From: Candidatus Sericytochromatia bacterium
Lineage (GTDB): Bacteria > Cyanobacteriota > Sericytochromatia > S15B-MN24 > JAQBPE01
Direction: 5' to 3'
DNA: 64,000 nt
NCBI GenBank assembly: GCA_036675505.1
Contig: JAKFEW010000047.1
Span: 8,821 to 72,820, forward strand
Shown: in pieces, positions 3,357-36,065 of the stretch
Position numbering within the stretch: the stretch's first letter is position 1
How the letters are laid out: every line of letters starts with the position of its first letter
The notes under the pieces: generated by a model
Database searches by the model: none
The model's input: only the letters and a program-made list of their open reading frames with translations
Told to the model about the DNA's origin: nothing
Position numbers and translations under genes: made by a program

Positions 3357-3367
3357 TAAGTGAAGAA

Positions 3368-18329: not shown

Positions 18330-18333
18330 CCAG

Positions 18334-19701: not shown

Positions 19702-19902
19702 GGCGGCAGGCGCCTGTGGATCTTGTCCCGCATGATCGGGCCGAATCTTCTTATGCTGGGGTTAACCGGGGGGCGTCGAAAGGTTAAGGAGTTGAGTTTT
19801 TCGATACAGCCTGTTGACGAATCGCCTAACAAGGTTTAGGATAGGTTAAGGGGATAACTTGGAGTTAACCACGGCGCACTGGCTCGGGAGGTTGGACGTT
19901 CG

Positions 19903-21201
19903 ATGAAGAGCGGAACCCGGATCGTCTTCACGGTTGCGATGGCAGCGCTGCTCGGCGCGTGCACCACCTTGTCGACTCCGCCCAGCGCCGGCACGAAGGC
20001 CGGCGCCCTCCAGGCCCTCGACGCCGTCGACGGCCCCGAGCCGCGCCTCGACCAGTACCCGACGCTGACGATCGACGTGCCGGCGCGGCCCACGCGCACC
20101 GCGCCGCGGCCCACCGGCGGCAACGTCGTCACGCCGTACGTGTCGCCCGCCGAGACCCTCCCGGCGCTGCTCGCGCTGATCGACGGCGCGAAGTCGTCGA
20201 TCTACCTCGAGACCTTCAACTTCGGCAGCCAGTCCTATGGCGAGCGGCTCGTGCCGCGCCTGATCGCGAAGGCCCGCGCGGGCGTCGAGGTGAAGGTGGT
20301 CATGGACTACTGCGGCAGCCGCTTCCTGCCGGGCCACAAGGAGATGCTGCGCGACCTGCGCGCGGCCGGCGTGGACGTGCGCCGCTACCTGCCGCGCGGG
20401 ATCCGCAAGGACGACCGGCAGATCGGCATCAACATCCAGCACCGCAAGGTCTACCTCGCGGACGGCGAGCGCGCGCTGGTGGGCGGCGTGAACCTCATGA
20501 AGGGGTTCGACACGATTCACCAGGACATCCTCGTGGCGTTCAGCGGGCCGGTGGTGGCGGACCTCTACAAGGAGTTCGCCCACGACTTCAAGGCCGCCGG
20601 CGGCAAAGCCGCGGTGCGCCTCCCGGCGCCGGTCTCGGCGGGCGGCTCGGCCACCACGCAGGTCTGCGTGACCAGCCCGGCCGAGGGCCGCTTCGAGGGC
20701 CGCGACATGATCTATGCGGGCATCGACGCCGCCAGCCGCTCGATCGTGATCGAGAACCAGTACCTCTGGGACGATCGCCTGATCGGGAAGCTCTACGCGG
20801 CGCTCGAGCGCGGCGTGCGGGTGCGCGTGATGGTGCCCGGCGAGGAAGCCAAAAAGGTGTGGCAGCACGTGCACGCCGAGGAGCTCAAGCGCCTCGTCGA
20901 TCGCGGCGCCGAAGCGCGCGTCTACCACGGCGATCCCTTCGAGGCCCACCTGCACGTGAAGTACTACTCGGTGGACGACCGCTGGACGGCGATCGGCTCG
21001 ACCAACGGCGACACGCGCGCGCTGCTCGACAACCAGGAAGTCCAGATCGCCGTCACCGACCCCGGATTCGCGGTGGAGCTGCGTCAGCGGCTCTTCGAGC
21101 GCGACTGGAACGAGCGCTCGCAGCCGTTCGTTTACAAGCCGGGGACCTTCATCAGCCGCCCCTTCCGGAGCCTGATGGAGATCATCGACTACTACTTGTA
21201 G
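19903..21201 (+). CDS. Phospholipase D-family (HKD) lipoprotein, paralog C (close paralog of A)
   Basis: Lipobox LLGACTT. HKD motifs (NIQHRKVYLADGERALVGGVNL, HLHVKYYSVDDRWTAIGSTNGDTRAL). It is collinear with paralog A over its whole length. Confidence 0.85.
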   Translation: MKSGTRIVFTVAMAALLGACTTLSTPPSAGTKAGALQALDAVDGPEPRLDQYPTLTIDVPARPTRTAPRPTGGNVVTPYVSPAETLPALLALIDGAKSSIYLETFNFGSQSYGERLVPRLIAKARAGVEVKVVMDYCGSRFLPGHKEMLRDLRAAGVDVRRYLPRGIRKDDRQIGINIQHRKVYLADGERALVGGVNLMKGFDTIHQDILVAFSGPVVADLYKEFAHDFKAAGGKAAVRLPAPVSAGGSATTQVCVTSPAEGRFEGRDMIYAGIDAASRSIVIENQYLWDDRLIGKLYAALERGVRVRVMVPGEEAKKVWQHVHAEELKRLVDRGAEARVYHGDPFEAHLHVKYYSVDDRWTAIGSTNGDTRALLDNQEVQIAVTDPGFAVELRQRLFERDWNERSQPFVYKPGTFISRPFRSLMEIIDYYL

Positions 21202-24252: not shown

Positions 24253-25248
24253 TCAATGCCCGTGGTGGTGGTCGTGGTGATGATCGTGGCCGTCGTCGTG
24301 GTGGTGGTGGTCGTGCCCGTGATGGGGTGGCTGCACCATGCCGAGGTTGCAGGCCGGCGAATCCGGCGAGCAGTGCTCCGCCTCGGCCTGGATCGTGGTG
24401 TGGATGATGCCGTACTTGTCGGCGAGCAGCTGGGTGCAGGCGGCGACGACGCCGACGCTGCGCGGCACGAGTTCGTCCTCGATGAGGACGTGGCACGAGA
24501 GGCTCGGCATGTTGCGGGCGATGCTCCAGACGTGCAGGTCGTGGACCTCGCGAACGCCCGCGATCGCCTTCAAGTCGCCCACCAGGCCCTCGACGTCGAG
24601 GTCCGGCGGCGCGCCTTCCATGAGGATCGCGATGCTCTCATCCACGACCTGCCAGGCCCCGTAGGCGATGAAGACGGCGATCGCCACCGACAGCAGCGGG
24701 TCGACCGCGTGCCAGCCCGTCACAGCGATCACGATCGCGCCGACGATCACGCCGCCGGACGCCGCCGCGTCGCCCATCACGTGCAGGAAAGCGCTGCGCA
24801 CGTTGAGGTTGTGCTCGGACTCGCCCTTGAGGCCCAGGCCGATCGCGAGGTTGATCACCAGGCCGATCGCCGCGGCGGCGAGCATCGTCATCGGCTGCAC
24901 GGCGACCGGTGCGCCCAGGCGCCCGTACGCCTCGTAGCCGATCCACAAGGCGATCAAGATCAGGCTCACGGCGTTCGCGAGCGCGGCGAGGATGCCGGTG
25001 CGGTGGTAACCGAAGGTGCGCTTCCGATCCGCCGGGCGCGTGGCTTGCCAGGTGGCGTACCACGAGAGGCCGAGGGCCGCGATGTCGGTGACGACATGGC
25101 CGGCGTCGGCGAGCAGGGCCAGGGACTTCGAGAGCCAGCCACCCACCAGCAGCACGGCGAGAACGCCGAAAGACAGGAAGAACGCGATCGCGAGCTTCCG
25201 CCCCGTCAGGTGGGCGTGGTGGTGATGGTGGTGGGCGTGGCCGATCAC
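24253..25248 (-). CDS. czcD: Cation diffusion facilitator (CDF) family metal exporter, CzcD-like, with His-rich termini
   Basis: The TM core follows the CDF signature (FFLSFGVLAVLLVGGWLSKSLALLADAGHVVTDIAAL...HVMGDAAASGGVIVGAIVI). Both termini are His-rich (HAHHHHHHAH at the N-terminus, HHGHDHHHHDDGHDHHHDHHHGH at the C-terminus). The GTG start overlaps the stop of the upstream small ORF (GTGA). Confidence 0.85.
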   Translation of the reverse strand: MIGHAHHHHHHAHLTGRKLAIAFFLSFGVLAVLLVGGWLSKSLALLADAGHVVTDIAALGLSWYATWQATRPADRKRTFGYHRTGILAALANAVSLILIALWIGYEAYGRLGAPVAVQPMTMLAAAAIGLVINLAIGLGLKGESEHNLNVRSAFLHVMGDAAASGGVIVGAIVIAVTGWHAVDPLLSVAIAVFIAYGAWQVVDESIAILMEGAPPDLDVEGLVGDLKAIAGVREVHDLHVWSIARNMPSLSCHVLIEDELVPRSVGVVAACTQLLADKYGIIHTTIQAEAEHCSPDSPACNLGMVQPPHHGHDHHHHDDGHDHHHDHHHGH

Positions 25249-25448
25249 GCTTCCGGGGTGATCTTCGCGATGCGCTCGCGCACGCTCTGGATCGTGCCCA
25301 GCGGCGCCGGCGTAGCGGGCACGTCGGCCGTAGGCGCCTGCGCCGCGGGCTCGATCGGGCCCAGCAAGGGCCCGGTCGCCACCTTCTTGGCGCGGCGGGC
25401 GACCGCGCGCGAGAGCTTGAGCTGATCGTTTGGCTGCTTGTCGGCCAT
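25245..25448 (-). CDS. Small hypothetical protein (67 aa) translationally coupled to the CDF exporter
   Basis: GAAGGAGG lies 6 nt before the ATG. High GC3. Its stop overlaps the CDF start. Confidence 0.55.
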   Translation of the reverse strand: MADKQPNDQLKLSRAVARRAKKVATGPLLGPIEPAAQAPTADVPATPAPLGTIQSVRERIAKITPEA

Positions 25449-25882
25449 GCGGGCCTCCTTCGGGCGGGCAGGGATCGCCCTCAGTATACCCCGCGTCGTG
25501 GCCGCCGGTGACGCGGCTCACGGCCCGCTAGGCGGCTTCCGGCGGACCATACCGGTGGGGAAAGCCCCCGCGATCCGGGTATACGGATCACGACGCCGAA
25601 GCCCCCAGCGGGAAAAGGCGCCGAGCGGGGGGCCGACCACCCGAGCGGGTGGAAGGTCCCCAGGCGAGGACCCCTCCGTATGATGTCTCTGGAAGCCCTG
25701 GCGATGGTACTGTGCGCCGCGATCGCGGTTTACCTGGCCTTCACCAAATGCCCCTGTAGCGTCGTTTCCGACGACTTGCAAGCGAGCTACGATCCATCTG
25801 AGCAGCCGTCCCGCTAGAGCGGGTCTGGACGCGCCCCGCGCGCTCATGTTAGGATGACCAGACTCCCGGCGATGCCGGGCGC

Positions 25883-25954
25883 GCCCCGATGGTCTAGTGG
25901 TTAGGACACCACCCTTTCAAGGTGGTAACACGGGTTCAATTCCCGTTCGGGGTA
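25883..25954 (+). tRNA. tRNA-Glu (anticodon TTC)
   Basis: Cloverleaf folded by hand. The acceptor pairs gccccga with tcggggt (G1-U72 wobble). The D-arm is gtct/agtggttaggac. The anticodon stem is ccacc/ggtgg and the loop is cTTTCaa. The T-arm is acggg/ttcaatt/cccgt. The discriminator is A and there is no encoded CCA. It resembles the E. coli tRNA-Glu architecture. Confidence 0.85.
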
Positions 25955-25966
25955 CTCGCTTTCTGG

Positions 25967-26000
25967 CCCCGCCTGCGATAGCAGGCGGGGTCTTGCTTTG
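25967..26000 (+). terminator. Rho-independent terminator after tRNA-Glu
   Basis: ccccgcctgc-gata-gcaggcgggg perfect 10-bp stem, followed by tcTTgcTTTg. Confidence 0.65.
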
Positions 26001-26287
26001 AGGGCCGGTGCCGAATTTGGACCAACAGCCGCGTCGCCGGAGAAGATTCGAAGAGCGAGGCTATCGGCTCATCTTCAAGTTCGAATCCCGTCGGGTCGGT
26101 GGGTGCCTGTCAGCGAAGATGACGTCGATCGGCCGTTACAAGGCCCGGCGCAAAGGCGGCGGCACCTGAGGGTCGGCGTGCCGCGCCCGGCGCCCCCCGG
26201 CCTGTCTGGCGGGGAGCGGAAGTCGATGCCATTTGGCTCACGGGAGCGTGGGCGACGGCCTCGCCGGAACAGTCGGCACTGCTCCCC

Positions 26288-26878
26288 TTACCTGGGCACG
26301 CGCGCGACGATCGTGCCCCGCAGCTTGAATGTGCCCGTGGACCTGGCTTCAGCCACGGTGTCCGGGCTGTCGTCCGGCTCAAACATCAGGTCGAGGTTCA
26401 GGTCGATCCGATCGTCTTCCAAATCGTCGACCTCGACCGTCCCCGACGTCGCATGCCAGCGCCACCCATTGGTCGCGGTCGACTGGTCGAACTGCACGTT
26501 GGCCGTGCCGGGCGGGTCGTCCTTGCCGACCCGCCGTACGGTGTAGGTCCGCCCGCTTGCCGGTTTGCCCCAGATGGACACCGCAATCGAGCCAACCTTG
26601 CCCGTGTCGGCCTTTGGCCGCAGCGAGAAGTTCGGGCCCCAGAAGTTCGAGCCCATCTTCCCCAGGCCCTGCTCGTGGACGACGTCGGCGATCGGGCTCG
26701 CATCGAAGTTGCCTGGCGTAATGGCGGAGAACCACAGCTTCGCCCGCGTGCCTCCTTCGTCTTCGAGGGACACGAGCGTCACCTCGCCCGGCCGCTTTTC
26801 GTCGAGGCCCGCGAGCAGGTAGCACCCGGCAAGCGTCGAGGCCGTGCCGAACACGGCGACGGCCAGCGTTTGGGCCAT
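26288..26878 (-). CDS. Hypothetical lipoprotein
   Basis: MAQTLAVAVFGTASTLAGC lipobox at the trimmed start (26878). The longer ORF-track N-terminus overlaps repeat copy 1 and looks spurious. Confidence 0.5.
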   Translation of the reverse strand: MAQTLAVAVFGTASTLAGCYLLAGLDEKRPGEVTLVSLEDEGGTRAKLWFSAITPGNFDASPIADVVHEQGLGKMGSNFWGPNFSLRPKADTGKVGSIAVSIWGKPASGRTYTVRRVGKDDPPGTANVQFDQSTATNGWRWHATSGTVEVDDLEDDRIDLNLDLMFEPDDSPDTVAEARSTGTFKLRGTIVARVPR

Positions 26879-27095
26879 GCAGTTGCGAATGAAGCTCAAC
26901 TCAACCTCCTTGGAGCAGGCGAGCACTTTGGGCCGCCCAGGCAGCCCACATTGTACATCGGGAGGCGTGGCGCTGAACCTGATCACGATTTCGAACATTT
27001 GCACCGCCGCCTGTCCGAATTGGCCCGCGTCATGCGGCACCCGGTACAAGCGTCCGGACCTCCGGGGTGACCATGGCTCGGCAAAGCTCGCCAGC

Positions 27096-27144
27096 GAAAG
27101 TTCTAACATCGTTCCGTTGGGGGTACAAGCGAGCAAGGGTTCCG
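27096..27144 (+). repeat. Island direct repeat, copy 1 (GAAAGTTCTAACATCGTTCCGTTGGGGGTAC-aagcgag-CAAGGGTTCCG)
   Basis: It shares a 16/16 core with copies 2 and 3. Its 3' half (CCGTTGGGGGTAC) resembles the tRNA-Glu 3' end (CCGTTCGGGGTAC). Confidence 0.7.
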
Positions 27145-27168
27145 TCGATCAGTCGATGGGACCCTTCT

Positions 27169-27687
27169 TCATTCGGATGCCGTCTCGGGCTGCGGGCGTG
27201 GCGTTACTTCTCGCCCCCACTTCATGAATTCGGCCCGATCCATGGTCTTCTGCTTGTCCTCGGCCAACATATCGAACGCCTCGTCCGTCCGGCCGCCCAG
27301 CATCGCCTCGAGGTACCGCTGGCCGCCCTTCACGTAGATCGCCGTGTCGGTCGGCACGCGCGTGACGGCGTCGGCGATTTCAACGCCCACAGGGTCGTGT
27401 ACGATGAGCGTTGAGAGTTGATCGCCGAGAAAGCCGACGATCATCGACAGCTCGCGCTTCTCGAACACGAACAAGCCCTTGAACTGGCGAGACCGGCGGG
27501 ACCCGTTGAGGTTGTCGCTGAACTCGTCCGACTTGATCGACTCGAGCGCTCCGAAGCGCGTCGCGATCTCCTTGACGAACGCCGCGAATAGCTCCGGATC
27601 GACCGCCTTGGCCTTGAGCTCGGGCGCGAGCTGCGCCTCGATCTGGGCCAGGCTGGCGCCACGCGTGGCCTCGAAGAATTGTTTGGT
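27169..27687 (-). CDS. Hypothetical protein. Only the C-terminal 172 codons are convincing. The 5' part is probably frameshifted or truncated (pseudogene candidate).
   Basis: The well-formed coding part is TKQFFEATRGASLAQIEAQLAPELKAKAVD...MKWGREVTPRPQPETASE. The upstream part of the 439-aa ORF is Cys/Arg-rich junk. A different frame (ORF 27441..27950) carries a plausible continuation ...PLVRIEFDVPVP. Confidence 0.35.
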   Translation of the reverse strand, partial: TKQFFEATRGASLAQIEAQLAPELKAKAVDPELFAAFVKEIATRFGALESIKSDEFSDNLNGSRRSRQFKGLFVFEKRELSMIVGFLGDQLSTLIVHDPVGVEIADAVTRVPTDTAIYVKGGQRYLEAMLGGRTDEAFDMLAEDKQKTMDRAEFMKWGREVTPRPQPETASE

Positions 27688-27922
27688 GTCGGCACCGGAA
27701 CGTCGAACTCGATGCGCACGAGCGGGCTCACCGTCGGCGCTCTTGCAAGCGGCTTGACCTGGCCCACGGCAACGCCGGTCAGTCGTCCGGTAGACGAGAC
27801 AAGCGTAAGCGTCGTCGTCGCACGGGGGCTGGCCGAGCTGTCCGTCCAATTCCGATGGCGGGAGGGTATGCAAGTCCCAAGGGCATGAATTCCATCGGCG
27901 GTAGCTGCGGCAGTGTGACTCG

Positions 27923-28357
27923 ATGCGTTGGACCAAGCTAGCGAGCGCATGGGCGCTGGTGGTGGTAGCCGGGCTGTATTCGGCGAGCTTGGTGCCGAGC
28001 TGGCACCTGGGCACGATGCTGTGGCCTTGGGCCGCGATCGGGAGCTTCCTGGCGTTGGCTCTCCTTCTTTGGCAGACGCCGGATGACGTCGATTTCGACG
28101 TGTGGCGGCGCTTCCCGACGTGGACCGTTGTTGGCTGCGCGTTCTTCGCGATCAGCGTGATGGGGAACACCATATACCTCGGCGACGAGATCGCGGTCCG
28201 CGACGGTCGACTTGCGATGCGGCAAGACTCCAGGTGGACTTCCATTTCGGAAGACGAACCGGCTCGCCAAATGGACATGAAGCTCAGGCTGGGCCTGGGC
28301 TTGGTGCTGCCGGGCTTCCTCTTCCTCGTCCTGGCCAATCGCCGTCGAGGCGGCTGA
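27923..28357 (+). CDS. Hypothetical membrane protein (3-4 TM helices)
   Basis: Hydrophobic segments (LASAWALVVVAGLYSASLV, AAIGSFLALALLLW, VVGCAFFAISVMG, LGLGLVLPGFLFLVLA). Coding-like GC3. Confidence 0.5.
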   Translation: MRWTKLASAWALVVVAGLYSASLVPSWHLGTMLWPWAAIGSFLALALLLWQTPDDVDFDVWRRFPTWTVVGCAFFAISVMGNTIYLGDEIAVRDGRLAMRQDSRWTSISEDEPARQMDMKLRLGLGLVLPGFLFLVLANRRRGG

Positions 28358-28488
28358 CGTTCGAGCGGCGTCGCCCAGCTGCAAGGGGGCAAGCCACTGC
28401 GATATGCTTCCGAGGTCAAGACAGCCACAGCGGTGTCTACCGGCCAGTGGAGAAGTTCTTGGGTTGCAAGCGCGGCAGCAAAGCTCAC

Positions 28489-28540
28489 GAAAGAAGTTCT
28501 AACATCGCCCCGTTGGGGGTACTATCATGCAAGGGTCCCG
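28489..28540 (+). repeat. Island direct repeat, copy 2 (GAAAGaagTTCTAACATCGCCCCGTTGGGGGTAC-tatcatg-CAAGGGTCCCG)
   Basis: Read directly in the sequence. It has a 3-nt insertion relative to copy 1. Confidence 0.7.
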
Positions 28541-28832
28541 CCTGGATGCAGGCGGGACCTTCATTTTGAGGGCAGCCGCTACTCCATCTCCATCACGTCG
28601 ACGAACCGCCCGTCGATGCCCTGGCCGTTCGCGAAGTTTCGACCCGTTGACACGGGTGTCGAGGCCGTTCGCGGGCTGTCGTCGAATACGATGCGGTTCC
28701 AAGCGCCCCGACTTGAATCAGAAGCCGGACCGTCTCCTCGTCGAAGCACGCGAAGGACCGATTCCCGGTTTCGCAAATGTGTTGACAATTCCGTGTGATA
28801 AGGCTACCTTGGGGACAGGGAAAAAGGTCCGA

Positions 28833-29111
28833 ATGCCCTTTTGGAACCGGAAGCGAAATGGCATCACCTTTGTCTTCAAGTCGGACCCGGTTGACGACAC
28901 GATGGCGCATATCTTCGCCCGGCACCGCAAGACTGAGGCGCAGGCGATGGCCATCTGGTTCGGCTTCACAAAGGAGCGGTAGAACGACGAGCACCAGCGG
29001 TTCGAGTCCTACACAGACGCGGAAGGCCTATTCTGGAAGTGGCATGACAAGGACACCGACAACACCCTTGTCCTGGTCATCAGCTGCTTCGATCGTCGCG
29101 AAGGCGAGTAA
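28833..29111 (+). pseudogene. brnT: BrnT-like (DUF497) ribonuclease toxin gene interrupted by an in-frame TAG at 28980-28982
   Basis: The N-terminal half (...ITFVFKSDPVDDTMAHIFARHRKTEAQAMAIWFGFTKER*) resembles BrnT FEWD..K...N..KHGVSFEEA..VF. Reading through the TAG in the same frame gives NDEHQRFESYTDAEGLFWKWHDKDTDNTLVLVISCFDRREGE*, which matches the BrnT C-terminal block (ER....G...LLVVV.T.R...IRIISAR). Confidence 0.55.
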
Positions 29112-29122
29112 GGGAGGCTGTT

Positions 29123-29473
29123 ATGTCGACCAACACCAACCCACGCCCCCGGCGCGTAGCGCCTGAACCTGGTCTGACGGCGTCTCAGGCCGAGATGAGC
29201 GAGCGTGAGCCGTGCACGTTCGACGATCCGGCATCGGAGGCTCATGCCGAGGCCGCGATCGCCCAGGCGGACGCGGAATTGGCCGCCCGAAAGCCCAACG
29301 TCAACTTTCGTTGGGAAGCCGCGCCGCTTGACGTGGTTCGGCTCGCGGCCGAACTCGCGGGCGTCCCCTATCAGACCTGGATGAAGCAGGTGCTATACAA
29401 GGAGGCCGTCGCGGCCATCACGGCCGCCCGCGAGGTGGACCCCCGCGCCCGCAAGCTCGCCGGCGGCGGCTAA
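29123..29473 (+). CDS. brnA: BrnA-like antitoxin (DUF4415/RHH-like)
   Basis: RKPNVNFRWEAAPLDVVRLAAELAGVPYQTWMKQVLYKEAV matches the BrnA C-terminal signature (...isiRLpe.lle.lk.lA...gvpYQtlin..L.e...). GGGAGG RBS. It lies 12 nt after the brnT stop. Confidence 0.65.
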   Translation: MSTNTNPRPRRVAPEPGLTASQAEMSEREPCTFDDPASEAHAEAAIAQADAELAARKPNVNFRWEAAPLDVVRLAAELAGVPYQTWMKQVLYKEAVAAITAAREVDPRARKLAGGG

Positions 29474-29528
29474 CCACTTCGCCGATGTCAGCCACGACGG
29501 GCATCCGGTTCATGGGTGTGGGATTCTC

Positions 29529-30296
29529 ATGTCCCCCATGATCATGCGAAGCGGATGGGTCTACTGCGACTGCTGGCGTGCCGGCCGGATCGGCGCGCTG
29601 CCGTTCCCGCGAGAATGGGTCAAGGTGGACCCCGAGTCGGGCGGGACGTGGGTCGAGAACCCGGCTTGGCCTCACCCTCCCGCCGACGGGACGCCGGCTC
29701 GCGAGGCGTTGGATGCCTCCAACGAGGCGCTCCGGCAGGCCTGTCCGCATGGCTTCAACGACGAGATGCTCACCAACGTGGACGGCGTCGACGGGCTCGC
29801 GAGGCGCCTGAAGGCCAATGGCGCCCCACACCTCTCGCACCTCATGGCCTTGTTGGAGGACCCCGGCCCGTACACGTCGCCGGCCGTCGCAGAGTCCGCA
29901 CTGCCGGAGCTGACGGTGGCGGAGGCTACGCTCGTCACGGAACGGGGCCTGGCGATCGTGGATGCGGACACCGGGGAGACCCTCGCAGGGCCACTACCGC
30001 CCGAGCTTCACCAGCAGCTCTACTTACCTCTGGATCACGAGCGAATCTTGTACCTGGAGGGCCGCGAACTGGTTCTGAAGCGCCACTTTCGGGTCGTCGA
30101 GGTGCGCCGCTTCAGGGCGCGTGACGTCCGGCTGCGGACCCGGAAGGTCGAGGATCTAGGAAGAGGTCCGGGGATCACCGCAGGGCGACGTTTCCGCGTC
30201 GAGGAGCGGCCGTATCGGCCCTATGCGGACCTGGTGAGCAGCCTGCGGGCGTTGTGCCTGGAGTCCGTGCGCTTCCGGAACCCGATCGTGTGGTAG
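29529..30296 (+). CDS. Hypothetical protein (255 aa), unknown function
   Basis: Strong GC3 bias. No recognisable domain. It lies immediately upstream of, and co-oriented with, the HTH antitoxin-like gene. Confidence 0.5.
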   Translation: MSPMIMRSGWVYCDCWRAGRIGALPFPREWVKVDPESGGTWVENPAWPHPPADGTPAREALDASNEALRQACPHGFNDEMLTNVDGVDGLARRLKANGAPHLSHLMALLEDPGPYTSPAVAESALPELTVAEATLVTERGLAIVDADTGETLAGPLPPELHQQLYLPLDHERILYLEGRELVLKRHFRVVEVRRFRARDVRLRTRKVEDLGRGPGITAGRRFRVEERPYRPYADLVSSLRALCLESVRFRNPIVW

Positions 30297-30430
30297 CCCG
30301 GCCATCTTGGTCAGGCCGGCATCCAGCCGTGCACGGTCCTCCGCGATCGCCCGGGATCCACACGACCTGTTCGCCTGGCCATTTGGGCCGCTCAAGCCGC
30401 ACCGGGCAGCAGTTCCTGAACTTCGGGCTC

Positions 30431-30694
30431 ATGGAGGGCCGATATGAAGACGCAGATGAGCTGGCGATCAAAGCCGAGCTGGCTTCGAGCATCCACGCGA
30501 TGGTCGAGGCGCGCGAGTTCACTCAGGAGCAGGCTGCCAAGGTCCTTGGGATGCCAAGACCCGAGGTGAGCCACCTGATGCGCGGGCGGCTCGCGCGCTT
30601 CACGATCGACCGGCTCGTGCGGGCCCACAACGCCCTCGCCCCCGACATCAGGATCGGGATCTCGTCTCAGCCTCGAAAGGCTGTACAGATGTAG
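30431..30694 (+). CDS. XRE/HTH_37-type antitoxin-like DNA-binding protein (HigA-family-like)
   Basis: AREFTQEQAAKVLGMPRPEVSHLMRGRLARFTIDRLVRAHNALAPDIRIGI matches the HTH_37/HigA2-like antitoxin pattern (..tQ.eaA..lg..q..vS.l.rGk...fsldrL...l.aLg..v.i). No RelE/HigB-like toxin lies adjacent. Confidence 0.6.
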   Translation: MEGRYEDADELAIKAELASSIHAMVEAREFTQEQAAKVLGMPRPEVSHLMRGRLARFTIDRLVRAHNALAPDIRIGISSQPRKAVQM

Positions 30695-31189
30695 ATGATG
30701 GCGACCGAAGGAGACGCGGTCGTGCCCCTGATGAGCTACGACGACTTCTTGAAGCTCGAGATTCCGGGCGAGGTGATCGAGGGCGTGCTCTATCTGGGAG
30801 GCCGGCGCGTCAAGGATTGGCGCAAGCTTGCGGAGTTGCTTGACGACGGCGACGAGGATGGCTAGGTCGTCGTTAGTCGGGTCAGGCCCTCAGCCAGGCG
30901 TGGATCAGGATGCTCAGGTCCAGATAGGTGCGGAGCTTCACTTCCCTTGATCATCTCAATCAGCGCCACCAGTTCAGGTGTTGAATTATGCGCGCAGCGG
31001 GCAGGTCACGATGTCCGAAGGGACGTGACCGCCCGACTGTGATCCAAGTGGTGTGGCCATCCTGGCGGTTCGATCCCCGTTGGCAGGGACACGCCCGAGG
31101 CAGACGCGTGTGCTGCGCGCCTGACGGCACCCTTCGGCAACCGCCTGCATTTCAACGAGCGGGCGGCGGGCGGCAGCCAAGCAGGGCCG

Positions 31190-31945
31190 TCAGCGGCCGC
31201 CGGCGACGTCCCACCAAGGCACGCCCTGGCTATCGTAGATGCCCACGGCGTAGTCGCGCACGGCCACCAAGTGGCCATTCGAGGTGGCCCTCAGGGCCCG
31301 CCAGGGCCCCTTGGGGCCGGCCGAAATGGGCATGTAGAGCAACGCGCCGGCCCGGCGCGGATCCACGCCGACGCCCGCCGAGTCGCCGCCCTCCGACGTC
31401 GCCGAGGTGCGATCGCCCACCATGGGCGCGAGCGCCACGGTCCCGGCCAGCACGTCCGGCCCGAGCTTCCCGCCCCACGGGCTGCGGTCGTAGTCATCCG
31501 CCGATTTCGCCTGCCACATCGCCACGAACTCCGCGCCAGTCGGCAGACGGTGCGCGCTGCCACGGTACGCCTCCACCATGGCCACAGCGTTACGGATGCG
31601 GTCCTGCGCGTAGCGATCCTGGGCCATGCGGACGACCACGCCGCGTGGGACCACGCTGCAGAGCAGGAGCAACGAAAGCAGGCCCGCCCCCGCAAGGCCG
31701 CCGGGCGTGCCGGGCAGGCGGCTCGCCTTGCCGGCCGCCTTGAACCCGGCGACCACGAGCATGGCCACGGACACGCTCGCGCAAGCCGCCGCCAGCCGAT
31801 CGAGGACTTCGGTCTCGCCCCGGATCAAGTCGAAGAAGACCGCCGGCTGGAGAGCTGCGGGCCCGTTCCAGATCGTGACGGCGCTGCAGGTGAAAACGTA
31901 GAGCACCACCAGGGCATAGGGGATGCCGATGAGCCACTTCAACAC
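31190..31945 (-). CDS. Hypothetical membrane protein
   Basis: The N-terminus has TM segments (LIGIPYALVVLYVFTCSAVTIW, VSVAMLVVAGFKAAG...LLSLLLLCSVV). Coding-like GC3. Confidence 0.5.
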   Translation of the reverse strand: MLKWLIGIPYALVVLYVFTCSAVTIWNGPAALQPAVFFDLIRGETEVLDRLAAACASVSVAMLVVAGFKAAGKASRLPGTPGGLAGAGLLSLLLLCSVVPRGVVVRMAQDRYAQDRIRNAVAMVEAYRGSAHRLPTGAEFVAMWQAKSADDYDRSPWGGKLGPDVLAGTVALAPMVGDRTSATSEGGDSAGVGVDPRRAGALLYMPISAGPKGPWRALRATSNGHLVAVRDYAVGIYDSQGVPWWDVAGGR

Positions 31946-32248
31946 GTCCGGGCCTCCTTCATGGCACCTGTGTACCCGGCGTCACCGGAGGCCGTGATTT
32001 CGTGGCTGCCCTGGCGCGTCCGGATTCGAGCCGCCGCGCCCCGAAGCGATGCCCCGCCGGCCGCCAGCGCCAAGTACATCCTTGGTGCGACCCCCGTCCT
32101 GCGCGTCGAGTTCAAGCGGTTCATCGCCGAGCATGGGGACGTGGCCCAGCCGGTGCCCGGGAGGGCGGCGAACCAGAACACGATGCTCTGATCAAGCTGG
32201 TACCGCTTCGCACGCCAGGCCGGTCATCGCTACGCTGAAGTGGTGGAC

Positions 32249-32278
32249 GAAAGTTCTAACATTGTCCCGTTGGGGGTC
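32249..32278 (+). repeat. Island direct repeat, copy 3 (GAAAGTTCTAACATTGTCCCGTTGGGGGTC)
   Basis: Read directly in the sequence. It lacks the CAAGGGTYCCG tail. Confidence 0.65.
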
Positions 32279-32307
32279 TCACATTCCGGCCCCTCCAGCG
32301 CCTCGAC

Positions 32308-32859
32308 TCAAGTCACTTGAGTTGGGGCTTCTTGCTTCGCGTCGTTTCGACGCTGCGCCCGTGCCCGGATCAGCGCGATGGCGGCCTGGCAGGTGTCTTC
32401 GAGCGTGTCCTGGATCGCGACCGCCGGGCATTCCTGCGCGAAGCGGTGGCGGATGTAGCGCGCTCCGGTGAAGCCTTCTTCGATCCCAACCGCGAGGGCC
32501 ACGCCGTCTCGCCGGTGGTTCTCCTTCCACTCCGCGAGCTCGAAGCGCGTGGTCTGGGCGTAGGCGCGCTCGCAGCGGTGGAAGCGCTCGGCGGCGAGCC
32601 AGAACAGCACCACGCCGTCAGTCCCCGCCCGCCGCAGGTACGCCGTCTCCCAGTCGACTTGTTCCTCGTACATCGCCTGGTCGAAATCGCGATCGACGTC
32701 CACCGGCCGGCGCGGGTTGGCGATGTGGACGTCGGGCGCGTGGCGCAGGAGGTAGGCGATTGCCTCGTCTTGCCAGGCCGAGGTCCAGGTCGGACCGGCC
32801 AGGAAGACCAGCGGACCTTCGATGACAGGATGCGCCGGGGCTACGATGAGCTTGCCCAT
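32308..32859 (-). CDS. Nucleoside 2-deoxyribosyltransferase-like (SLOG-superfamily) protein
   Basis: MGKLIVAPAHPVIEGPLVFLAGPTW... carries the 'FLAGP' Rossmann-like signature of Ndt-like and DUF4406 proteins. GGAGGA RBS. I trimmed the start to M12. Confidence 0.5.
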   Translation of the reverse strand: MGKLIVAPAHPVIEGPLVFLAGPTWTSAWQDEAIAYLLRHAPDVHIANPRRPVDVDRDFDQAMYEEQVDWETAYLRRAGTDGVVLFWLAAERFHRCERAYAQTTRFELAEWKENHRRDGVALAVGIEEGFTGARYIRHRFAQECPAVAIQDTLEDTCQAAIALIRARAQRRNDAKQEAPTQVT

Positions 32860-33026
32860 GGATCGGTCCTCCACAAAGTGTAAAGTGTACAATAAGCAGT
32901 GTAGGCGAGATGGGAACGGCTGGTCAAGCCTTCGGTGCTCGAATCATCAAGCTCCCAGGGCTCGGCTTCGCCGGCGGTCTGCCAGATCCCCGCGTTCCCA
33001 GTCAGGATTGCGCGGAGGGTCTCGAC

Positions 33027-33914
33027 TCAGCGCCGCAGCTGTTGGGCCGTAAAGGCCGAGTAGTCCTCGGATGGCGAAGCGACGTCCGAGGACGTGAGGC
33101 CCGCGGACGCCAAGACGCGGCCGAGCTGGCCCGCGAAGGCGTATTCCCGATCGGTGGTCAGCGGCGCGACCGGCGCGCCTTCGACCTCGAATAGCTCGGC
33201 CGGACGGCCCTGTGCGTCGCGCACCGCGTGCCGGCGCAGAATCAGCCGGGTACCGTCGTCCGCGGATGTCGTGGCCCAGGTCTGCGTCTGCTTCATCGAT
33301 GACGGCAGATAGGGCTCGCGCGTCAACATGCCGCCGCTCAGGCGCCGCAGCACGTCGCCGTTCAGCTCGCGCCAGATCCGGTCTACAACGTCTCCCTGCC
33401 GGCGCAGCGGCTCCCCGCCGTTCTCGAGCAAGCCGAAGAAGGTCCGAGTCGCGCCGATCAGGCCCGCGGCGGGCTTCAGGTCGTCACGCCAGACCCAGCG
33501 CGTGTCCAGGTTGATCGGCACGCCGCCGTCCGGCACGATCAAGCGGAGACTGTAGTGACTGAGCTGCCAGGCGGCGGCGTCCCCGCTGAGCTGCAGCGTA
33601 AGCGTGGGGCGCTGCTTGTCGTCGAAGCTGTAGTTCCTGGAGAAGGACGCGACCCACCACTGCTCGAGCTCCACCTCGGCGCTCTCGGGCCGCGTGGTCC
33701 AGGTGAAGGCCCGCTGAAGGCGCGAGAAGCCCTCGGCGGTCAGCGTTGCGTGGTAGGCGACGGAGAGGTGGGCCTCGGGCGTCAGTCCGGCGGCACGCAC
33801 ACCGAGCGGGGCGCGCGCCGTCAAGGCCACGGTCGGCGAGCCCGGGCGGGCGGTGGCGCATCCGGCGAGGGTGACCAGCGCGAGGGTCGCGAGGAGCAAG
33901 GGACGACAAGACAT
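33027..33914 (-). CDS. Hypothetical lipoprotein
   Basis: MSCRPLLLATLALVTLAGC lipobox at the trimmed start (33914). Confidence 0.5.
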   Translation of the reverse strand: MSCRPLLLATLALVTLAGCATARPGSPTVALTARAPLGVRAAGLTPEAHLSVAYHATLTAEGFSRLQRAFTWTTRPESAEVELEQWWVASFSRNYSFDDKQRPTLTLQLSGDAAAWQLSHYSLRLIVPDGGVPINLDTRWVWRDDLKPAAGLIGATRTFFGLLENGGEPLRRQGDVVDRIWRELNGDVLRRLSGGMLTREPYLPSSMKQTQTWATTSADDGTRLILRRHAVRDAQGRPAELFEVEGAPVAPLTTDREYAFAGQLGRVLASAGLTSSDVASPSEDYSAFTAQQLRR

Positions 33915-34037
33915 GCCATGCCTTCTCGGGCGGTCGATCCTGGAACATACGTCCGCGGAAAAATCCTTAACTCGTGCTTGCTCGCGCTGCGATTCGGCGT
34001 AAGTCGTCGACTTCGGGCGAGGCCTGGTTTGCGACGA

Positions 34038-34068
34038 AGCGTGCCCCGAAGGTTCAATAACCGTCCAG
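34038..34068 (+). repeat. Island direct repeat, copy 4 (most diverged: GAAGGTTCAATAACCGTCCAGTTGGGGGTAC)
   Basis: It shares GTTGGGGGTAC and GGTTCAAT with the T-loop/acceptor region of tRNA-Glu. A CAAGG sequence follows ~25 nt downstream. Confidence 0.5.
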
Positions 34069-34086
34069 TTGGGGGTACTGGCAAGT

Positions 34087-35445
34087 TCAATCTCGCGCGA
34101 TGGGCAAGGTGAACCAGAAGGTGGCGCCACGGCCTTCCTGGGAATCCACGCCGATTTGCCCACTATGCGCCTCGACGAGATGCTTCGCGAGCACGAGCCC
34201 AATGCCTGCGCCGCCGACATCGCGCGTCGCGCTCATGTCGACCTGGGAGAACACCTGAAAGAGCTTCCCGAGCTCCTGCTCCGCGATGCCGACGCCCGTA
34301 TCCCGGACGTGAAACCGCACCATGTCGCCCTCGAGCGTCGCCCCGACGGTGATGGTCCCCGTCTCGAAGCTGAACTTGATGGCGTTGTCGACGAGGATCG
34401 CCAGCACCTGGGCGAGCCGCATCTCGTCGGCGAGCACCGGCGGCAGGTCCACAGGAACCTCGTTCTCGATGACGCGCCGCTGGGCCGCCTCCGCCACCTC
34501 GTCGAGCACCCGCTCCACGACCGGTACGACGACGACGGGCCGGGGGTCGACCGTGAACCGACCCGCCTGGACGCGCGAGAGGTCGAGCAGGTTCCCGACC
34601 AGGGCGAGCAGGCGCTCGCTGCTCGCGGCGGCCTTGGCGAGGAACTCCTGCTGCTTCGGCAGGAGCGGCCCCGCAATCTCGTCTTGGAGGATGCTGATGA
34701 ACCCCATGATGCCGTTGAGGGGCGTCCGCAGCTCGTGGGAGAGGACGCCCAGGAACTCGGTCTTCATCCGGTCCGCCTGCTGGAGCTCGGCGAGCTGCCG
34801 GAGGATGTCCGCCTCCATCTTCTTGCGCTGCGAGATGTCCGAGAAGGTGATGGCGAGACCGTTCGCCACCCGGATCACGAGCACGCGGAACCAGCGGGCG
34901 CTGTCCTCCCGCTCGTAGCGGTACTCGCCTTCGAAGGGCTCGCCGGTCCTCAACACGTGCAGGTACTCGGACCAGAGCCCCGCGTCGTGGATGTCGGGGT
35001 GGAGCTCGAGCAGGCGCTTCCCGGCGAGGCTGTCGAGCGCGTACAGGCGCTGGGCCGCCGGGTTCGTGAGCACGCACTCGAAGTCGACGACCTCGCCATC
35101 CGGGCCGGGGACCGAGCGGTAAACAAGCACGCCGTCGACCGAGGACTCCAGGACCCAGGCCAGGAGCATCTCCTTCTCATGCAACTCCAGCGTCTGTTGG
35201 TAGATGTCGAGCTGGAGGCGATCCACCCGGTCATCCGAGGCGTCCCGCTCGCCCTTCAGCCTCGCGATCGAGACGCGCTGGCCCGCCAGGGAGCCCGCCT
35301 GGCGCTCGATCGTCGCCTCCGCCGCGCCAAGGTCCGCGGCGCCCTGCTCCGCGGCCGCGATCAGACCATCACGCTCCCCTTCGAGGGAGTGGAGCGCGGC
35401 CTCGGTCGAAGGATCGGGGTTCCCGTCGGGCTCGAGGGTGGTCAT
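34087..35445 (-). CDS. PAS-domain sensor histidine kinase (orphan)
   Basis: H-box FLGVLSHELRTPLNGIMGF. N/G1/G2 ATPase motifs (LVDNAIKFS, DTGVGI, GGAGIGLVLAKHLV). A PAS-like segment and an N-terminal coiled coil. Its ATG overlaps the stop of the upstream GNAT remnant (ATGA). Confidence 0.85.
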   Translation of the reverse strand: MTTLEPDGNPDPSTEAALHSLEGERDGLIAAAEQGAADLGAAEATIERQAGSLAGQRVSIARLKGERDASDDRVDRLQLDIYQQTLELHEKEMLLAWVLESSVDGVLVYRSVPGPDGEVVDFECVLTNPAAQRLYALDSLAGKRLLELHPDIHDAGLWSEYLHVLRTGEPFEGEYRYEREDSARWFRVLVIRVANGLAITFSDISQRKKMEADILRQLAELQQADRMKTEFLGVLSHELRTPLNGIMGFISILQDEIAGPLLPKQQEFLAKAAASSERLLALVGNLLDLSRVQAGRFTVDPRPVVVVPVVERVLDEVAEAAQRRVIENEVPVDLPPVLADEMRLAQVLAILVDNAIKFSFETGTITVGATLEGDMVRFHVRDTGVGIAEQELGKLFQVFSQVDMSATRDVGGAGIGLVLAKHLVEAHSGQIGVDSQEGRGATFWFTLPIARD

Positions 35446-35852
35446 GCGGGCATCGTAGCATGAGGCCAACCCCGCCCAAACCCTCTGTTCGCCGCTGGGC
35501 CTGGAGCCGGCCGGTTGTGCCCACGCCCGTGGCGGAGCGGTCGCGGCCGGGCGGCCGACTCGCCTTCCAGGGCGGGCAGCGGGAAGAACCCGTAGCGGTC
35601 ATACCAGGCCACCGCCGGAGGCTTGGCGTCGACGACGATGCCCACGCATCCCACTGCGTCGGCCTGCGTCAACGCGAGATGGATCACCGCATGCAGCAAC
35701 GTACTACCGATCCCTCGCCCTTGGGCGGCCTTGCCGATATGGTGGCGAAACTGGTTCTGGCCGGCGTATTTGAGGAAGAAGCGGTCGAGATCGGCATCGC
35801 CGCTCGTGAAGGCGGTGCGGTGGTCCTGTTCTCGGAGTGCCCTAACTTCCAT
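35442..35852 (-). pseudogene. TacT/AtaT-like GNAT toxin remnant with a ~50-aa internal deletion and a run-on C-terminus
   Basis: It aligns to Salmonella TacT in two blocks. HRTAFTSGDADLDRFFLKYAGQN matches [23 protein letters not shown], and HAVIHLALTQADAVGCVGIVVDAKPPAVAWYDRYGFFPL matches [40 protein letters not shown]. The ~50 residues between them, which span the central beta-strands, are missing. The last ~45 codons read through into the HK promoter region. Confidence 0.5.
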
Positions 35853-35958
35853 GCCGCTTCATCAAGGCTCGCAACGCCGGCGTCGGCTGCGGCGCTTCCA
35901 TCTGCTGCAACATCGCTTCCGCCGCCTCCGAAACACGGGCGTTGATTTGCACAGCCAT
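35842..35958 (-). CDS. Truncated RHH/DUF1778-like (TacA-like) antitoxin remnant (38 aa)
   Basis: MAVQINARVSEAAEAMLQQ... matches the TacA N-terminus (VQLNLRAKESQRALIDAAAE). GAGGTGA RBS. It overlaps the toxin ATG by 11 nt. It is below the ORF-track size cutoff. Confidence 0.4.
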   Translation of the reverse strand: MAVQINARVSEAAEAMLQQMEAPQPTPALRALMKRHGS

Positions 35959-36065
35959 CGCCAATCACCTCACCAGGAGGGCGAGCACGCCTCATAGCCC
36001 TGGCGATGATGATGGGTGTTCATGGTAACGTGGGGCCGTCGCCCCCGCATCCAGGAGCCTTCAGC

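What the first reader, a model, noticed from the sequence alone, without database searches (positions are those of the whole stretch)
29529..30694. Orphan HigA/HTH_37-type antitoxin-like gene preceded by an uncharacterised 255-aa ORF instead of a RelE/HigB toxin
The 88-aa protein (30431-30694) matches the C-terminal HTH pattern of HigA2/XRE antitoxins. Such antitoxins normally follow a ~95-aa RelE/HigB-type toxin. Here the co-oriented upstream gene, with a 134-nt gap, is a 255-aa protein with no recognisable domain and strong coding signal. Either the toxin was lost, or the 255-aa protein is a non-canonical partner such as a toxin or abortive-infection effector.
Basis: inference. Interest (0 to 1): 0.5.

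Follow-up and report, generated by a model that had tools for sequence, protein, structure and literature searches.

The report
Toxin-less antitoxin relic beside orphan gene
The small DNA-binding gene is the leftover half of an ordinary toxin-antitoxin pair that lost its toxin and its own toxin-binding tip, and the unknown 255-aa gene in front of it is an unrelated, very rare neighbour rather than a new kind of toxin.

Summary
Both ORFs are real. The 255-aa ORF (29529-30296) codes well and matches no library. The 87-aa ORF (30431-30694) is a clear HTH_37 protein. The proposed pairing fails.

HTH_37 gene:
- Its closest relatives (75-90% identical) are 95 aa.
- In 5 of 5 readable loci they sit directly behind a Gp49/HigB-type RelE toxin (PF05973).
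- In the window, similarity to those loci starts only at 30441-30443.
- The toxin gene and the first ~13 antitoxin codons (the SVFHQLG motif) are gone, and no toxin remnant is detectable.

255-aa protein:
- It belongs to a tiny family: about seven distinct members among roughly 15 billion proteins.
- Shared motifs are CxCW...CxH...GNPxxW.
- No member outside this genome lies beside an HTH gene.
- In the nearest relative (94.8% DNA identity), similarity ends at the 255-aa stop codon and a convergent PIN/Phd pair follows.

Context: both genes lie in a hypervariable island downstream of tRNA-Glu. The island consists of small cassettes bounded by repeats resembling the tRNA-Glu 3' end, and it holds many toxin-antitoxin modules, several decayed.

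Verdict: an ordinary orphan antitoxin created by a deletion, next to an uncharacterised ORFan-family gene. "Toxin lost" is supported. "Non-canonical partner" is not.

The parts
25883..25955 (+). tRNA-Glu(UUC). It is the left anchor of the variable island; a Cation_efflux gene (24253-25521, minus strand) lies to its left.
   Evidence: ARAGORN; Rfam RF00005 at 71 bits; Pfam. The same arrangement is seen in L001 and L009.
27098..27126 (+). Repeat R, copy 1. It has a conserved arm ending in a ~14-nt core like the tRNA-Glu 3' end, followed by a GC-rich hairpin and a T-run. It marks a cassette boundary.
28494..28522 (+). Repeat R, copy 2. It is the left boundary of the cassette that holds the finding. 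Relative to L001, the window carries an extra 2.5 kb (26006-28508) between the tRNA and this copy.
28824..29111 (+). Disrupted 95-aa gene. Its W53 codon is TGG->TAG at 28980-28982, and the codon matching L001's ATG start is AAG. It is intact in L001 (1685-1972). It is possibly the toxin half of a pair with the next gene.
   Evidence: Codon-by-codon comparison. GC3 stays at 0.88 past the stop codon. No library hit.
29123..29473 (+). 116-aa ribbon-helix-helix-like protein resembling CopG/BrnA antitoxins, with a strong Shine-Dalgarno sequence (AAGGGAGG).
   Evidence: PF12441 at E=3.7e-4, 21.6 bits, below the 28-bit cut-off. Weak Arc-repressor match over residues 55-92. dN/dS 0.075 against L001.
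29529..30296 (+). 255-aa gene of an uncharacterised, very rare family. Invariant residues include C13, C15, W16, C72, H74 and the C-terminal S-V-x-x-x-N-P-x-x-W.
   Evidence: AF2 model pLDDT 72. No fold match. dN/dS 0.435 against L001.
30297..30442 (.). Junction DNA of unknown origin. Similarity to L001 ends at 30296 and similarity to HTH_37 homolog loci starts at 30441-30443. It holds no toxin remnant, no att repeat, no promoter-like or terminator-like site, no palindrome and no significant fold.
30431..30694 (+). N-terminally truncated HTH_37 (HigA-type) antitoxin relic, 87 aa.
   Evidence: Pfam profile positions 8-79 of 80, whereas homologs match from position 1. Alignment with 95-aa homologs. 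dN/dS of the HTH core 0.10-0.14.
30695..30865 (+). 56-aa acidic ORF (pI 4.1) that abuts the HTH stop codon (TAGATG). Its first ~17 codons are shared with L005, where repeat R cuts it short.
31066..31082 (+). 16-nt fragment identical to the T-arm region of the tRNA-Glu in L009 and L008 (GGTTCGATCCCCGTTG). It is probably another degenerate att remnant.
32251..32279 (+). Repeat R, copy 3, a cassette boundary.
34050..34078 (+). Repeat R, copy 4, degenerate. The island ends near 36020, where similarity to L001 resumes at the DUF1579 gene.

Best explanation
The 87-aa gene is the surviving C-terminal part of the antitoxin of a Gp49/HigB-type toxin plus HTH_37 antitoxin operon (type II, toxin gene first).

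Inferred event: a deletion or illegitimate recombination inside a tRNA-Glu-associated island removed the toxin gene and the first ~13 antitoxin codons. That lost segment carries the conserved SVFHQLG motif. In the solved Vibrio cholerae HigA2, the equivalent N-terminal part is the toxin-neutralising segment. The deletion fused the remaining HTH core to unrelated DNA that happens to supply an in-frame ATG 10 nt upstream of the homology boundary.

The 255-aa gene upstream is not its partner. It is a stand-alone cargo gene of the neighbouring piece of the island. It belongs to a tiny family with a probable Cys2-Cys-His metal site, and its function is unknown.

Shown: the domain identities, the canonical partner in relatives, the truncation, the absence of a toxin, the breakpoints, and the lack of conserved linkage.

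Inferred: the deletion event itself, the metal site, and the idea that the relic now acts at most as a free DNA-binding protein.
For: 1. HTH_37 identity: E=2.6e-20.
2. Homologs at 75-90% identity are 95 aa and begin MTEEASVFHQLGYEDADEL. The window copy begins MEGRYEDADEL. It matches the Pfam profile from position 8, whereas P0004 and P0013 match from position 1.
3. A Gp49 (PF05973) gene lies immediately upstream of the homolog in 5 of 5 informative loci:
   - L004, E=2.7e-16;
   - L003, where only the last 41 aa of the toxin are on the contig. That fragment alone gave no Pfam hit and is assigned by its sequence similarity to the L004 toxin C-terminus;
   - L005, weak (E=0.0037, 17.7 bits, below the 23.9-bit cut-off) and internally deleted;
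   - L013;
   - L014.
4. DNA similarity to L003, L004 and L005 starts at window 30441-30443. tblastn with their toxins finds nothing in 30100-30440 or anywhere else in the 64 kb.
5. L001 is 94.8% identical over window 28509-30296. The similarity ends at the 255-aa stop codon, and a convergent PIN/Phd pair follows in L001.
6. The other 255-family members have no HTH neighbour.
7. In VcHigA2, N-terminal residues 1-36 are the toxin-neutralising segment (PMC5416850).
Against: - Only about six independent contexts of the 255-aa family exist, so absence of linkage rests on a small sample.
- The HTH core shows no relaxed selection: dN/dS is 0.10-0.14 against homologs, the same as between intact homologs. 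The relic may therefore still be in use, or the truncation may be recent.
- The origin of the 146-nt junction DNA is unknown, so the deletion is inferred rather than reconstructed.
- Physical interaction between the two proteins was not tested.
- The window's HTH_37 family is not a close sequence relative of VcHigA2. The best PDB hits are 2O38 and 2A6C. Transferring the N-terminal function from VcHigA2 is therefore by architecture, not by close homology.
Confidence: 0.8

Rival explanations
1. The 255-aa protein is a non-canonical toxin or abortive-infection effector kept in check by the HTH_37 protein.
For: The two genes are co-oriented and 134 nt apart. The 255-aa protein has no known function. 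The island is full of conflict-type genes: PIN/Phd, Fic, MNT and NDT-like genes in the window and in related loci.
Against: - The adjacency exists only in this one genome (L002 is the same sequence).
- Similarity to the closest relative breaks at the 255-aa stop codon.
- Five other family contexts lack any HTH gene.
- The antitoxin has lost the N-terminal segment that, in this architecture, binds the toxin.
- The HTH_37 homologs have a different, canonical partner.
Confidence: 0.04
2. The truncated HTH_37 protein is not junk. It has been retained as a free transcription factor, or as an 'anti-addiction' antitoxin against incoming Gp49-type toxins. This is compatible with the deletion history in the best explanation.
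For: The reading frame is intact, with an ATG. dN/dS of the HTH core is 0.10-0.14, no higher than between intact homologs. GC3 stays high through the gene and into the abutting 56-aa ORF. In VcHigA2 the C-terminal domain alone dimerises and binds DNA (PMC5416850).
Against: - By eye, no Shine-Dalgarno sequence is obvious before the ATG.
- The upstream 146 nt has no promoter-like site, no operator-like palindrome and no significant fold.
- The toxin-neutralising N-terminal motif is missing, which argues against an anti-addiction role.
- The low dN/dS may only reflect history before a recent truncation.
Confidence: 0.3
3. The 255-aa gene is the third component of the upstream 95-aa / CopG-like module, forming a three-gene toxin-antitoxin-like system.
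For: The three genes are co-oriented and kept together in both the window and L001, with gaps of 11 and 55 nt in the window.
Against: - The window and L001 are ~95% identical, so this is not independent conservation.
- The family members in L006/L007, L008, L009, L010 and L011 lack both upstream genes.
- In the window the 95-aa gene carries a nonsense mutation while the 255-aa gene stays open.
- Selection differs strongly: dN/dS 0.075 for the CopG-like gene against 0.435 for the 255-aa gene.
Confidence: 0.06
4. The HTH_37 gene and the abutting 56-aa ORF form a reversed pair, antitoxin first and small toxin second.
For: The stop and start codons abut (TAGATG). GC3 is 0.82 in the 56-aa frame. 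The first ~17 codons are shared with L005.
Against: - The 56-aa product is acidic (pI 4.1) and has no family hit.
- It is absent downstream of the HTH gene in L003 and L004, and is cut short by repeat R in L005.
- The homologs' partner is the upstream Gp49 toxin.
Confidence: 0.04

Closest known systems
HigB2-HigA2-type type II toxin-antitoxin modules: RelE-superfamily toxin gene first, then an antitoxin with an N-terminal neutralising segment and a C-terminal HTH (V. cholerae HigBA2, PMC5416850). Here the pair is Gp49 (PF05973) with HTH_37 (PF13744).
   Same: - The antitoxin domain is HTH_37.
- Relatives have the toxin-first operon with overlapping or abutting stop and start codons.
- A conserved N-terminal motif precedes the HTH.
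   Different: - The window copy has no toxin and lacks the first ~13 residues.
- It is not a close sequence relative of VcHigA2. The best solved relatives are the structural-genomics proteins 2O38 and 2A6C.
Orphan (solitary) antitoxins left by toxin-antitoxin decay, as catalogued in population surveys of Klebsiella and E. coli (PMC7192599 and PMC10790755, both seen as search listings only, not read in full).
   Same: An antitoxin-family gene without an adjacent toxin, in a variable genomic island where neighbouring modules are also decaying. Examples are the nonsense mutation in the 95-aa gene, the degraded toxins in L004 and L005, and a degraded Fic gene in L006 (judged from the translation by eye, since the Pfam scan of the called ORF found nothing).
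   Different: Here the antitoxin itself is also truncated at the end that, in this architecture, binds the toxin. It is therefore unlikely to serve as an anti-addiction antitoxin.
Tandem accretion of att-flanked, integrase-less elements at tRNA or tmRNA genes. Examples are cis-mobilizable elements (CIMEs; review PMC5704250) and the tandem ssrA islands of Dehalococcoides (PMC3146451). Both were seen as search listings only.
   Same: Same-orientation repeats containing the last ~14 nt of tRNA-Glu bound successive small gene blocks downstream of the tRNA. Each repeat is composed like an attR: a conserved element arm, then the core, then a variable older flank.
   Different: - The blocks are very small, 0.75-3.7 kb, and some hold a single gene.
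- No integrase lies in the array or within 10 kb of it.
- Mobility was not shown.
- This concerns the context of the finding, not the finding itself.

Membership tests
HigA2/HTH_37-type type II antitoxin (87-aa gene) | HTH_37 (PF13744) DNA-binding and dimerisation domain | tested here: met
   E=2.6e-20, 72.4 bits against a 27-bit cut-off, profile positions 8-79 of 80.
HigA2/HTH_37-type type II antitoxin (87-aa gene) | N-terminal toxin-neutralising segment preceding the HTH | tested here: not met
   The first ~13 residues of the 95-aa homologs (MTEEASVFHQLG) are absent. Profile positions 1-7 are not matched, unlike in P0004 and P0013. DNA homology starts at 30441-30443. The role of this segment is taken from VcHigA2.
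HigA2/HTH_37-type type II antitoxin (87-aa gene) | Adjacent cognate RelE/HigB/Gp49 toxin gene in the same operon | tested here: not met
   No such ORF is present. tblastn with the homologs' toxins finds nothing at the locus or anywhere in the window. Relatives have the toxin in 5 of 5 loci.
HigA2/HTH_37-type type II antitoxin (87-aa gene) | Neutralises a toxin and autorepresses its promoter | not testable with these tools
   This needs expression, binding and EMSA experiments. No operator-like palindrome lies upstream.
RelE/HigB/Gp49 toxin, or any type II toxin (255-aa gene) | Sequence or fold membership in a known toxin family | tested here: not met
RelE/HigB/Gp49 toxin, or any type II toxin (255-aa gene) | Conserved pairing with an antitoxin gene across homologs | tested here: not met
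   Neighbours differ in every context:
- L001: PIN/Phd, convergent;
- L006/L007: Fic remnant;
- L008: none;
- L009: DUF1963, convergent;
- L010: APH, convergent;
- L011: Macro-like.
RelE/HigB/Gp49 toxin, or any type II toxin (255-aa gene) | Toxicity on expression, relieved by the partner | not testable with these tools
   Requires an experiment.
BrnT/BrnA-type pair (95-aa gene with the CopG-like gene upstream) | BrnA-type CopG_antitoxin (PF12441) and BrnT (PF04365) domains | tested here: inconclusive
   PF12441 scores 21.6-22.4 bits, below the 28-bit cut-off. There is a weak Arc-repressor match. The 95-aa protein has no hit at all, including BrnT.
Integron gene-cassette array (context) | IntI integrase with attI, and attC sites with complementary R''/R' cores (RYYYAAC...GTTRRRY) | tested here: not met
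   No integrase is adjacent. By eye, the repeats are tRNA-3'-end-like with a terminator hairpin and do not have attC architecture.
Tandem att-flanked islands at a tRNA gene (context) | Same-orientation direct repeats of the tRNA 3' end bounding the blocks | tested here: met
   Five same-strand matches to the core (the tRNA end itself plus four repeat copies), against 0.25 expected by chance. The conserved arm plus variable flank is shown.
Tandem att-flanked islands at a tRNA gene (context) | Cognate site-specific recombinase and demonstrable excision or integration | not tested
   The only integrase in the window (1901-3232, P4-like) sits next to a different tRNA-like fragment at about 3300-3365, read by eye as tRNA-Lys-like.

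The most novel reading that the evidence does not exclude
The CxCW...CxH...GNPxxW family, to which the 255-aa protein belongs, could be the signature gene of an undescribed class of integrase-less mini-cassettes that pile up at tRNA-Glu. It might even be a maintenance or mobility factor for them. Each cassette would use a conserved ~45-nt arm plus a 14-nt tRNA-derived core, giving an integron-like cassette economy with a tRNA-derived attachment site. The smallest units (L008, L010) contain only this gene between two such sites.
Probability: 0.08. Interest if true: 0.7.

Novelty: new member of a known kind. Interest (0 to 1): 0.25.

Why it matters
As posed, the finding asked whether a new toxin or abortive-infection effector is paired with a HigA-type antitoxin. 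The answer is no, which saves a toxicity screen.

It is a clean example of how toxin-antitoxin modules decay. The toxin and the toxin-binding tip of the antitoxin were removed in one step, and the HTH core stayed open.

Two by-products may deserve a separate look:
- A protein family with about seven known members, a probable metal site, and no detectable sequence or fold relatives.
- An array of very small cassettes at tRNA-Glu, bounded by tRNA-derived repeats, which shuffles toxin-antitoxin and ORFan genes in a soil or compost lineage.

Tried and rejected
- **Toxin pseudogene in the gap or the 3' end of the 255-aa gene.** tblastn with the Gp49 toxins of L003, L004 and L005, plus a chimeric full-length toxin, found nothing. 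The one weak hit at about 59.6 kb (E=0.075) lies inside an unrelated large ORF and was dismissed.
- **Origin of the 146-nt junction.** No match in any fetched locus or elsewhere in the window.
- **Promoter, operator or structure in the gap.** No promoter-like site, no palindrome, and a fold z-score of -1.4.
- **Longer 146-aa reading of the HTH gene from GTG 30254.** No frame-specific GC3 signal upstream of 30431.
- **Function of the 255-aa protein by sequence.** Nothing in Pfam, NCBIfam, PADLOC, PHROGs or a PDB profile search.
- **Function of the 255-aa protein by structure.**
  - The single-sequence AF2 model was useless (pLDDT 34).
  - A 6-sequence alignment gave pLDDT 72.
  - The afdb50 library was unavailable.
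- **More family members.**
  - The exhaustive HMMER search of 1.84 billion representatives gave 4 hits, one of them spurious (the repeat protein P0029).
  - The profile search added 2.
  - The GTDB genome scan added one, Lentzea.
  - The metagenome scan only re-found L009, and the viral scan found nothing.
- **23-nt direct repeat flanking the HTH/56-aa block (30309-30331 and 30880-30902, 83%).** Treated as chance, because the difference between the window and L001 extends far beyond it.
- **Minus-strand coding in the conserved left arm of repeat R.** Rejected, because in L010 the arm sits in a 45-nt gap after a plus-strand gene.
- **Integron attC reading of the repeats.** Rejected by eye: the R''/R' cores are not complementary and no IntI is present.
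- **Source organism.** It could not be named. The exact proteins are in NCBI without names. An outer-membrane efflux protein (OEP) gene suggests a diderm host.
Full report
**1. Observation**

The two ORFs exist as described.
- ORF 29529-30296 (+) encodes 255 aa. Its GC3 is 0.84 against GC2 0.50, and a frame-specific GC3 signal runs along the whole ORF. The genome averages about 68-70% GC.
- It has no hit in Pfam, NCBIfam, PADLOC or PHROGs, and none in PDB by sequence.
- ORF 30431-30694 (+) is 87 aa, not 88. It matches PF13744 HTH_37 at E=2.6e-20.
- The gap between the two ORFs is 134 nt. No RelE-sized ORF precedes the HTH gene.

**2. The canonical partner of this HTH_37 protein**

Its closest relatives (P0003-P0010, 75-90% identical) are 95 aa. 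They start MTEEASVFHQLGYEDADEL, whereas the window protein starts MEGRYEDADEL.

Every homolog whose contig shows the upstream DNA has a Gp49/HigB-type RelE-superfamily toxin directly upstream, with overlapping or abutting stop and start codons.
- L004: PF05973 at E=2.7e-16.
- L003: only the last 41 aa of the toxin are on the contig. That fragment alone gave no Pfam hit and is assigned by its similarity to the L004 toxin C-terminus.
- L005: a weak, sub-threshold hit (E=0.0037), with an internal deletion.
- L013 and L014: more distant homologs (52-53% identical), both with a Gp49 gene.

The toxins in L004 and L005 are themselves damaged: an N-terminal stop codon in L004 and an internal deletion in L005. 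This module family is therefore decaying in several relatives.

**3. What happened in the window**

- DNA similarity between the window and L003, L004 and L005 starts at 30441-30443. That is 10 nt after the present ATG.
- The Pfam match starts at profile position 8. Full-length homologs match from position 1.
- tblastn with the homologs' toxins finds nothing in 30100-30440, and nothing credible anywhere in the 64 kb.
- The toxin gene and the first ~13 antitoxin codons are therefore gone. The present start codon lies in unrelated DNA.
- In the solved V. cholerae HigB2-HigA2 system, the antitoxin's N-terminal residues 1-36 are the toxin-neutralising segment, and the C-terminal HTH domain dimerises and binds DNA (PMC5416850). 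By that architecture, the window protein has lost part of its toxin-binding end.
- The window family is not a close sequence relative of VcHigA2. The best solved relatives are 2O38 and 2A6C. This transfer is by architecture only.
- The HTH core shows dN/dS of 0.10-0.14 against homologs, the same as between intact homologs. The relic is either recent or still used as a DNA-binding protein.
- By eye, no Shine-Dalgarno sequence is obvious upstream of the ATG. The scans found no promoter-like site, no palindrome and no significant fold there.

**4. The 255-aa protein**

It is close to an ORFan.
- A word-seeded search of 5.8 billion clusters found one relative (P0001, 94% identical).
- An exhaustive HMMER pass over 1.84 billion representatives added P0027 (39%) and P0028. 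P0029 is a spurious repeat protein.
- A profile search added P0030 and P0031.
- A scan of GTDB species genomes added one Lentzea protein at 27% identity.
- The metagenome and viral scans added nothing.

The family has long forms (241-292 aa) and short forms (181-190 aa). The short forms lack the basic beta-rich middle part.

Invariant residues include V11, C13, C15, W16, G19, C72, H74, N83, E127 and the extreme C-terminal S-V-x-x-x-N-P-x-x-W. The CxC...CxH arrangement suggests a metal site; this is an inference.

Against L001, dN/dS is 0.435 (15 synonymous and 19 non-synonymous changes). This indicates a real gene under loose constraint. The upstream CopG-like gene gives 0.075.

**5. Linkage test**

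- L001 is 94.8% identical to the window over 28509-30296. Similarity ends at the 255-aa stop codon, and a convergent PIN/PhdYeFM pair and a Fic gene follow in L001.
- Similarity resumes only at window 36021, in the DUF1579 gene.

The other family contexts:

| Locus | Neighbours of the family gene |
|---|---|
| L006/L007 | Divergent 137-aa gene with weak, sub-threshold EF-hand matches upstream; apparent Fic remnant (by eye), then convergent PIN/Phd downstream |
| L008 | tRNA-Glu on the left, repeat R on the right, nothing else |
| L009 | tRNA-Glu upstream; convergent DUF1963 downstream |
| L010 | Repeat R on both sides; convergent APH kinase further right |
| L011 (Lentzea) | Overlapping Macro-like gene (sub-threshold Pfam hit) |

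None has an HTH gene. The only other copy of the 255/HTH_37 adjacency is L002, which is 100% identical to the window and so is the same sequence.

**6. Why the two genes are neighbours**

Both lie in a variable island between tRNA-Glu (25883-25955) and about 36020. The conserved flanks are a Cation_efflux gene on the left and a DUF1579 gene on the right.

Island genes have GC3 of 0.80-0.84, whereas flanking core genes have 0.90-0.97.

The island is punctuated by same-orientation repeats (R) at 27098, 28494, 32251 and 34050, plus a tRNA-like fragment at 31066-31082. Each R has three parts.
- A conserved ~45-nt arm.
- A ~14-nt core matching the tRNA-Glu 3' end (CCCGTTsGGGGTAC).
- A variable GC-rich hairpin with a T-run.

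In L010, the right part of one R equals the DNA downstream of the true tRNA-Glu in L009. That is how an attR would be composed.

The same repeat follows the Gp49/HTH_37 modules in L003, L004 and L005, and bounds the 255-family gene in L006-L010.

There is no R between the 255-aa gene and the HTH gene. The simplest history is a deletion that fused two neighbouring blocks. It would have removed the toxin, the antitoxin's 5' end, and probably an intervening repeat.

**7. Upstream pair**

- A 95-aa gene is intact in L001. In the window it carries W53 TGG->TAG at 28980-28982 and has lost its first ATG.
- It is followed by a 116-aa ribbon-helix-helix-like protein: PF12441 is sub-threshold and there is a weak Arc-repressor match.
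- It looks like another toxin-antitoxin-like pair whose first gene has just been inactivated.
- It is linked to the 255-aa gene only in the two near-identical sequences, so a three-gene system is unlikely.

**8. Verdict**

The finding is an ordinary orphan antitoxin that is itself truncated. It sits next to an uncharacterised cargo gene of a rare family.
- The 'non-canonical toxin partner' reading has about 4% support.
- The most novel reading not excluded concerns the context. The cassette array at tRNA-Glu may be a distinct integrase-less cassette system, with the 255-family gene as its recurrent or sole cargo. I put this at about 8%.

Noticed in passing
window 25883-36020; repeats at 27098-27126, 28494-28522, 32251-32279 and 34050-34078; fragment at 31066-31082: The island downstream of tRNA-Glu is an array of small blocks (about 1.1-3.7 kb, no integrase). 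The blocks are bounded by same-orientation repeats. Each repeat has a conserved ~45-nt arm, a ~14-nt tRNA-Glu 3'-end core, and a variable terminator-like hairpin (at least four hairpin sequences). The same repeat bounds cassettes in L003-L010. The smallest cassettes (L008; L010 1386-2132) hold only the 255-family gene.
   Followed up: partly
window 26006-28508: This 2.5-kb segment (two cassettes: a 282-aa gene on the minus strand and a 144-aa gene on the plus strand, both without family hits) is absent from the 95%-identical relative L001. It is flanked by copies of the tRNA-Glu 3' end and terminator region (25941-26005 and 28509-28573).
   Followed up: partly
window 28824-29111 (TAG at 28980-28982): The 95-aa gene upstream of the CopG-like gene has a TGG->TAG nonsense change at codon 53 and ATG->AAG at its first codon, relative to L001. 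Coding-type GC3 continues past the stop codon, so the inactivation looks recent.
   Followed up: yes
L004 41-310; L005 2-268: The Gp49 toxins next to the closest HTH_37 homologs are themselves damaged: an in-frame stop near the N-terminus in L004 and an internal deletion in L005. This toxin-antitoxin family is decaying in several related populations.
   Followed up: partly
L011 7839-9037 (Lentzea sp. NPDC051838): The only family member found in the GTDB species-genome scan overlaps by 10 nt a 160-aa gene with a weak Macro-domain match (PF01661, E=0.0048, below threshold). This is a possible functional lead for the family (ADP-ribose biology) that is seen nowhere else.
   Followed up: no
window 1901-3232 (-) and about 3300-3365: A P4-type tyrosine integrase (Phage_integrase plus Arm-DNA-bind_3) lies next to a tRNA 3'-half-like fragment (...CTTTTAATCTGCGGGTCCCGGGTTCAAGTCCCGGCGCGCTCA). 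By eye it looks tRNA-Lys-like, and ARAGORN does not call it. This is the end of a different integrated element, and local GC drops to 0.61.
   Followed up: no
window 17022-21201: Three adjacent PLD-like (PLDc_2) paralogs of 432-455 aa in alternating orientation (17022-18329 plus, 18334-19701 minus, 19903-21201 plus).
   Followed up: no
L006 389-1061 and 2521-2875: The island of a relative carries an NTP_transf_2 (MNT-like) gene followed by two small ORFs. It also has what looks like a frameshifted, internally deleted Fic gene: by eye, the Fic_N-like motif EAVLSSKIEGT sits in a second frame. The Pfam scan of the called ORF found nothing. These are more decayed conflict modules in the same kind of array.
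   Followed up: no
window 32308-32892 (-): A gene resembling nucleoside 2-deoxyribosyltransferase (PF15891, E=3.6e-8) forms part of the next cassette. Its 3' end runs into the hairpin part of repeat R at 32251-32335.
   Followed up: no
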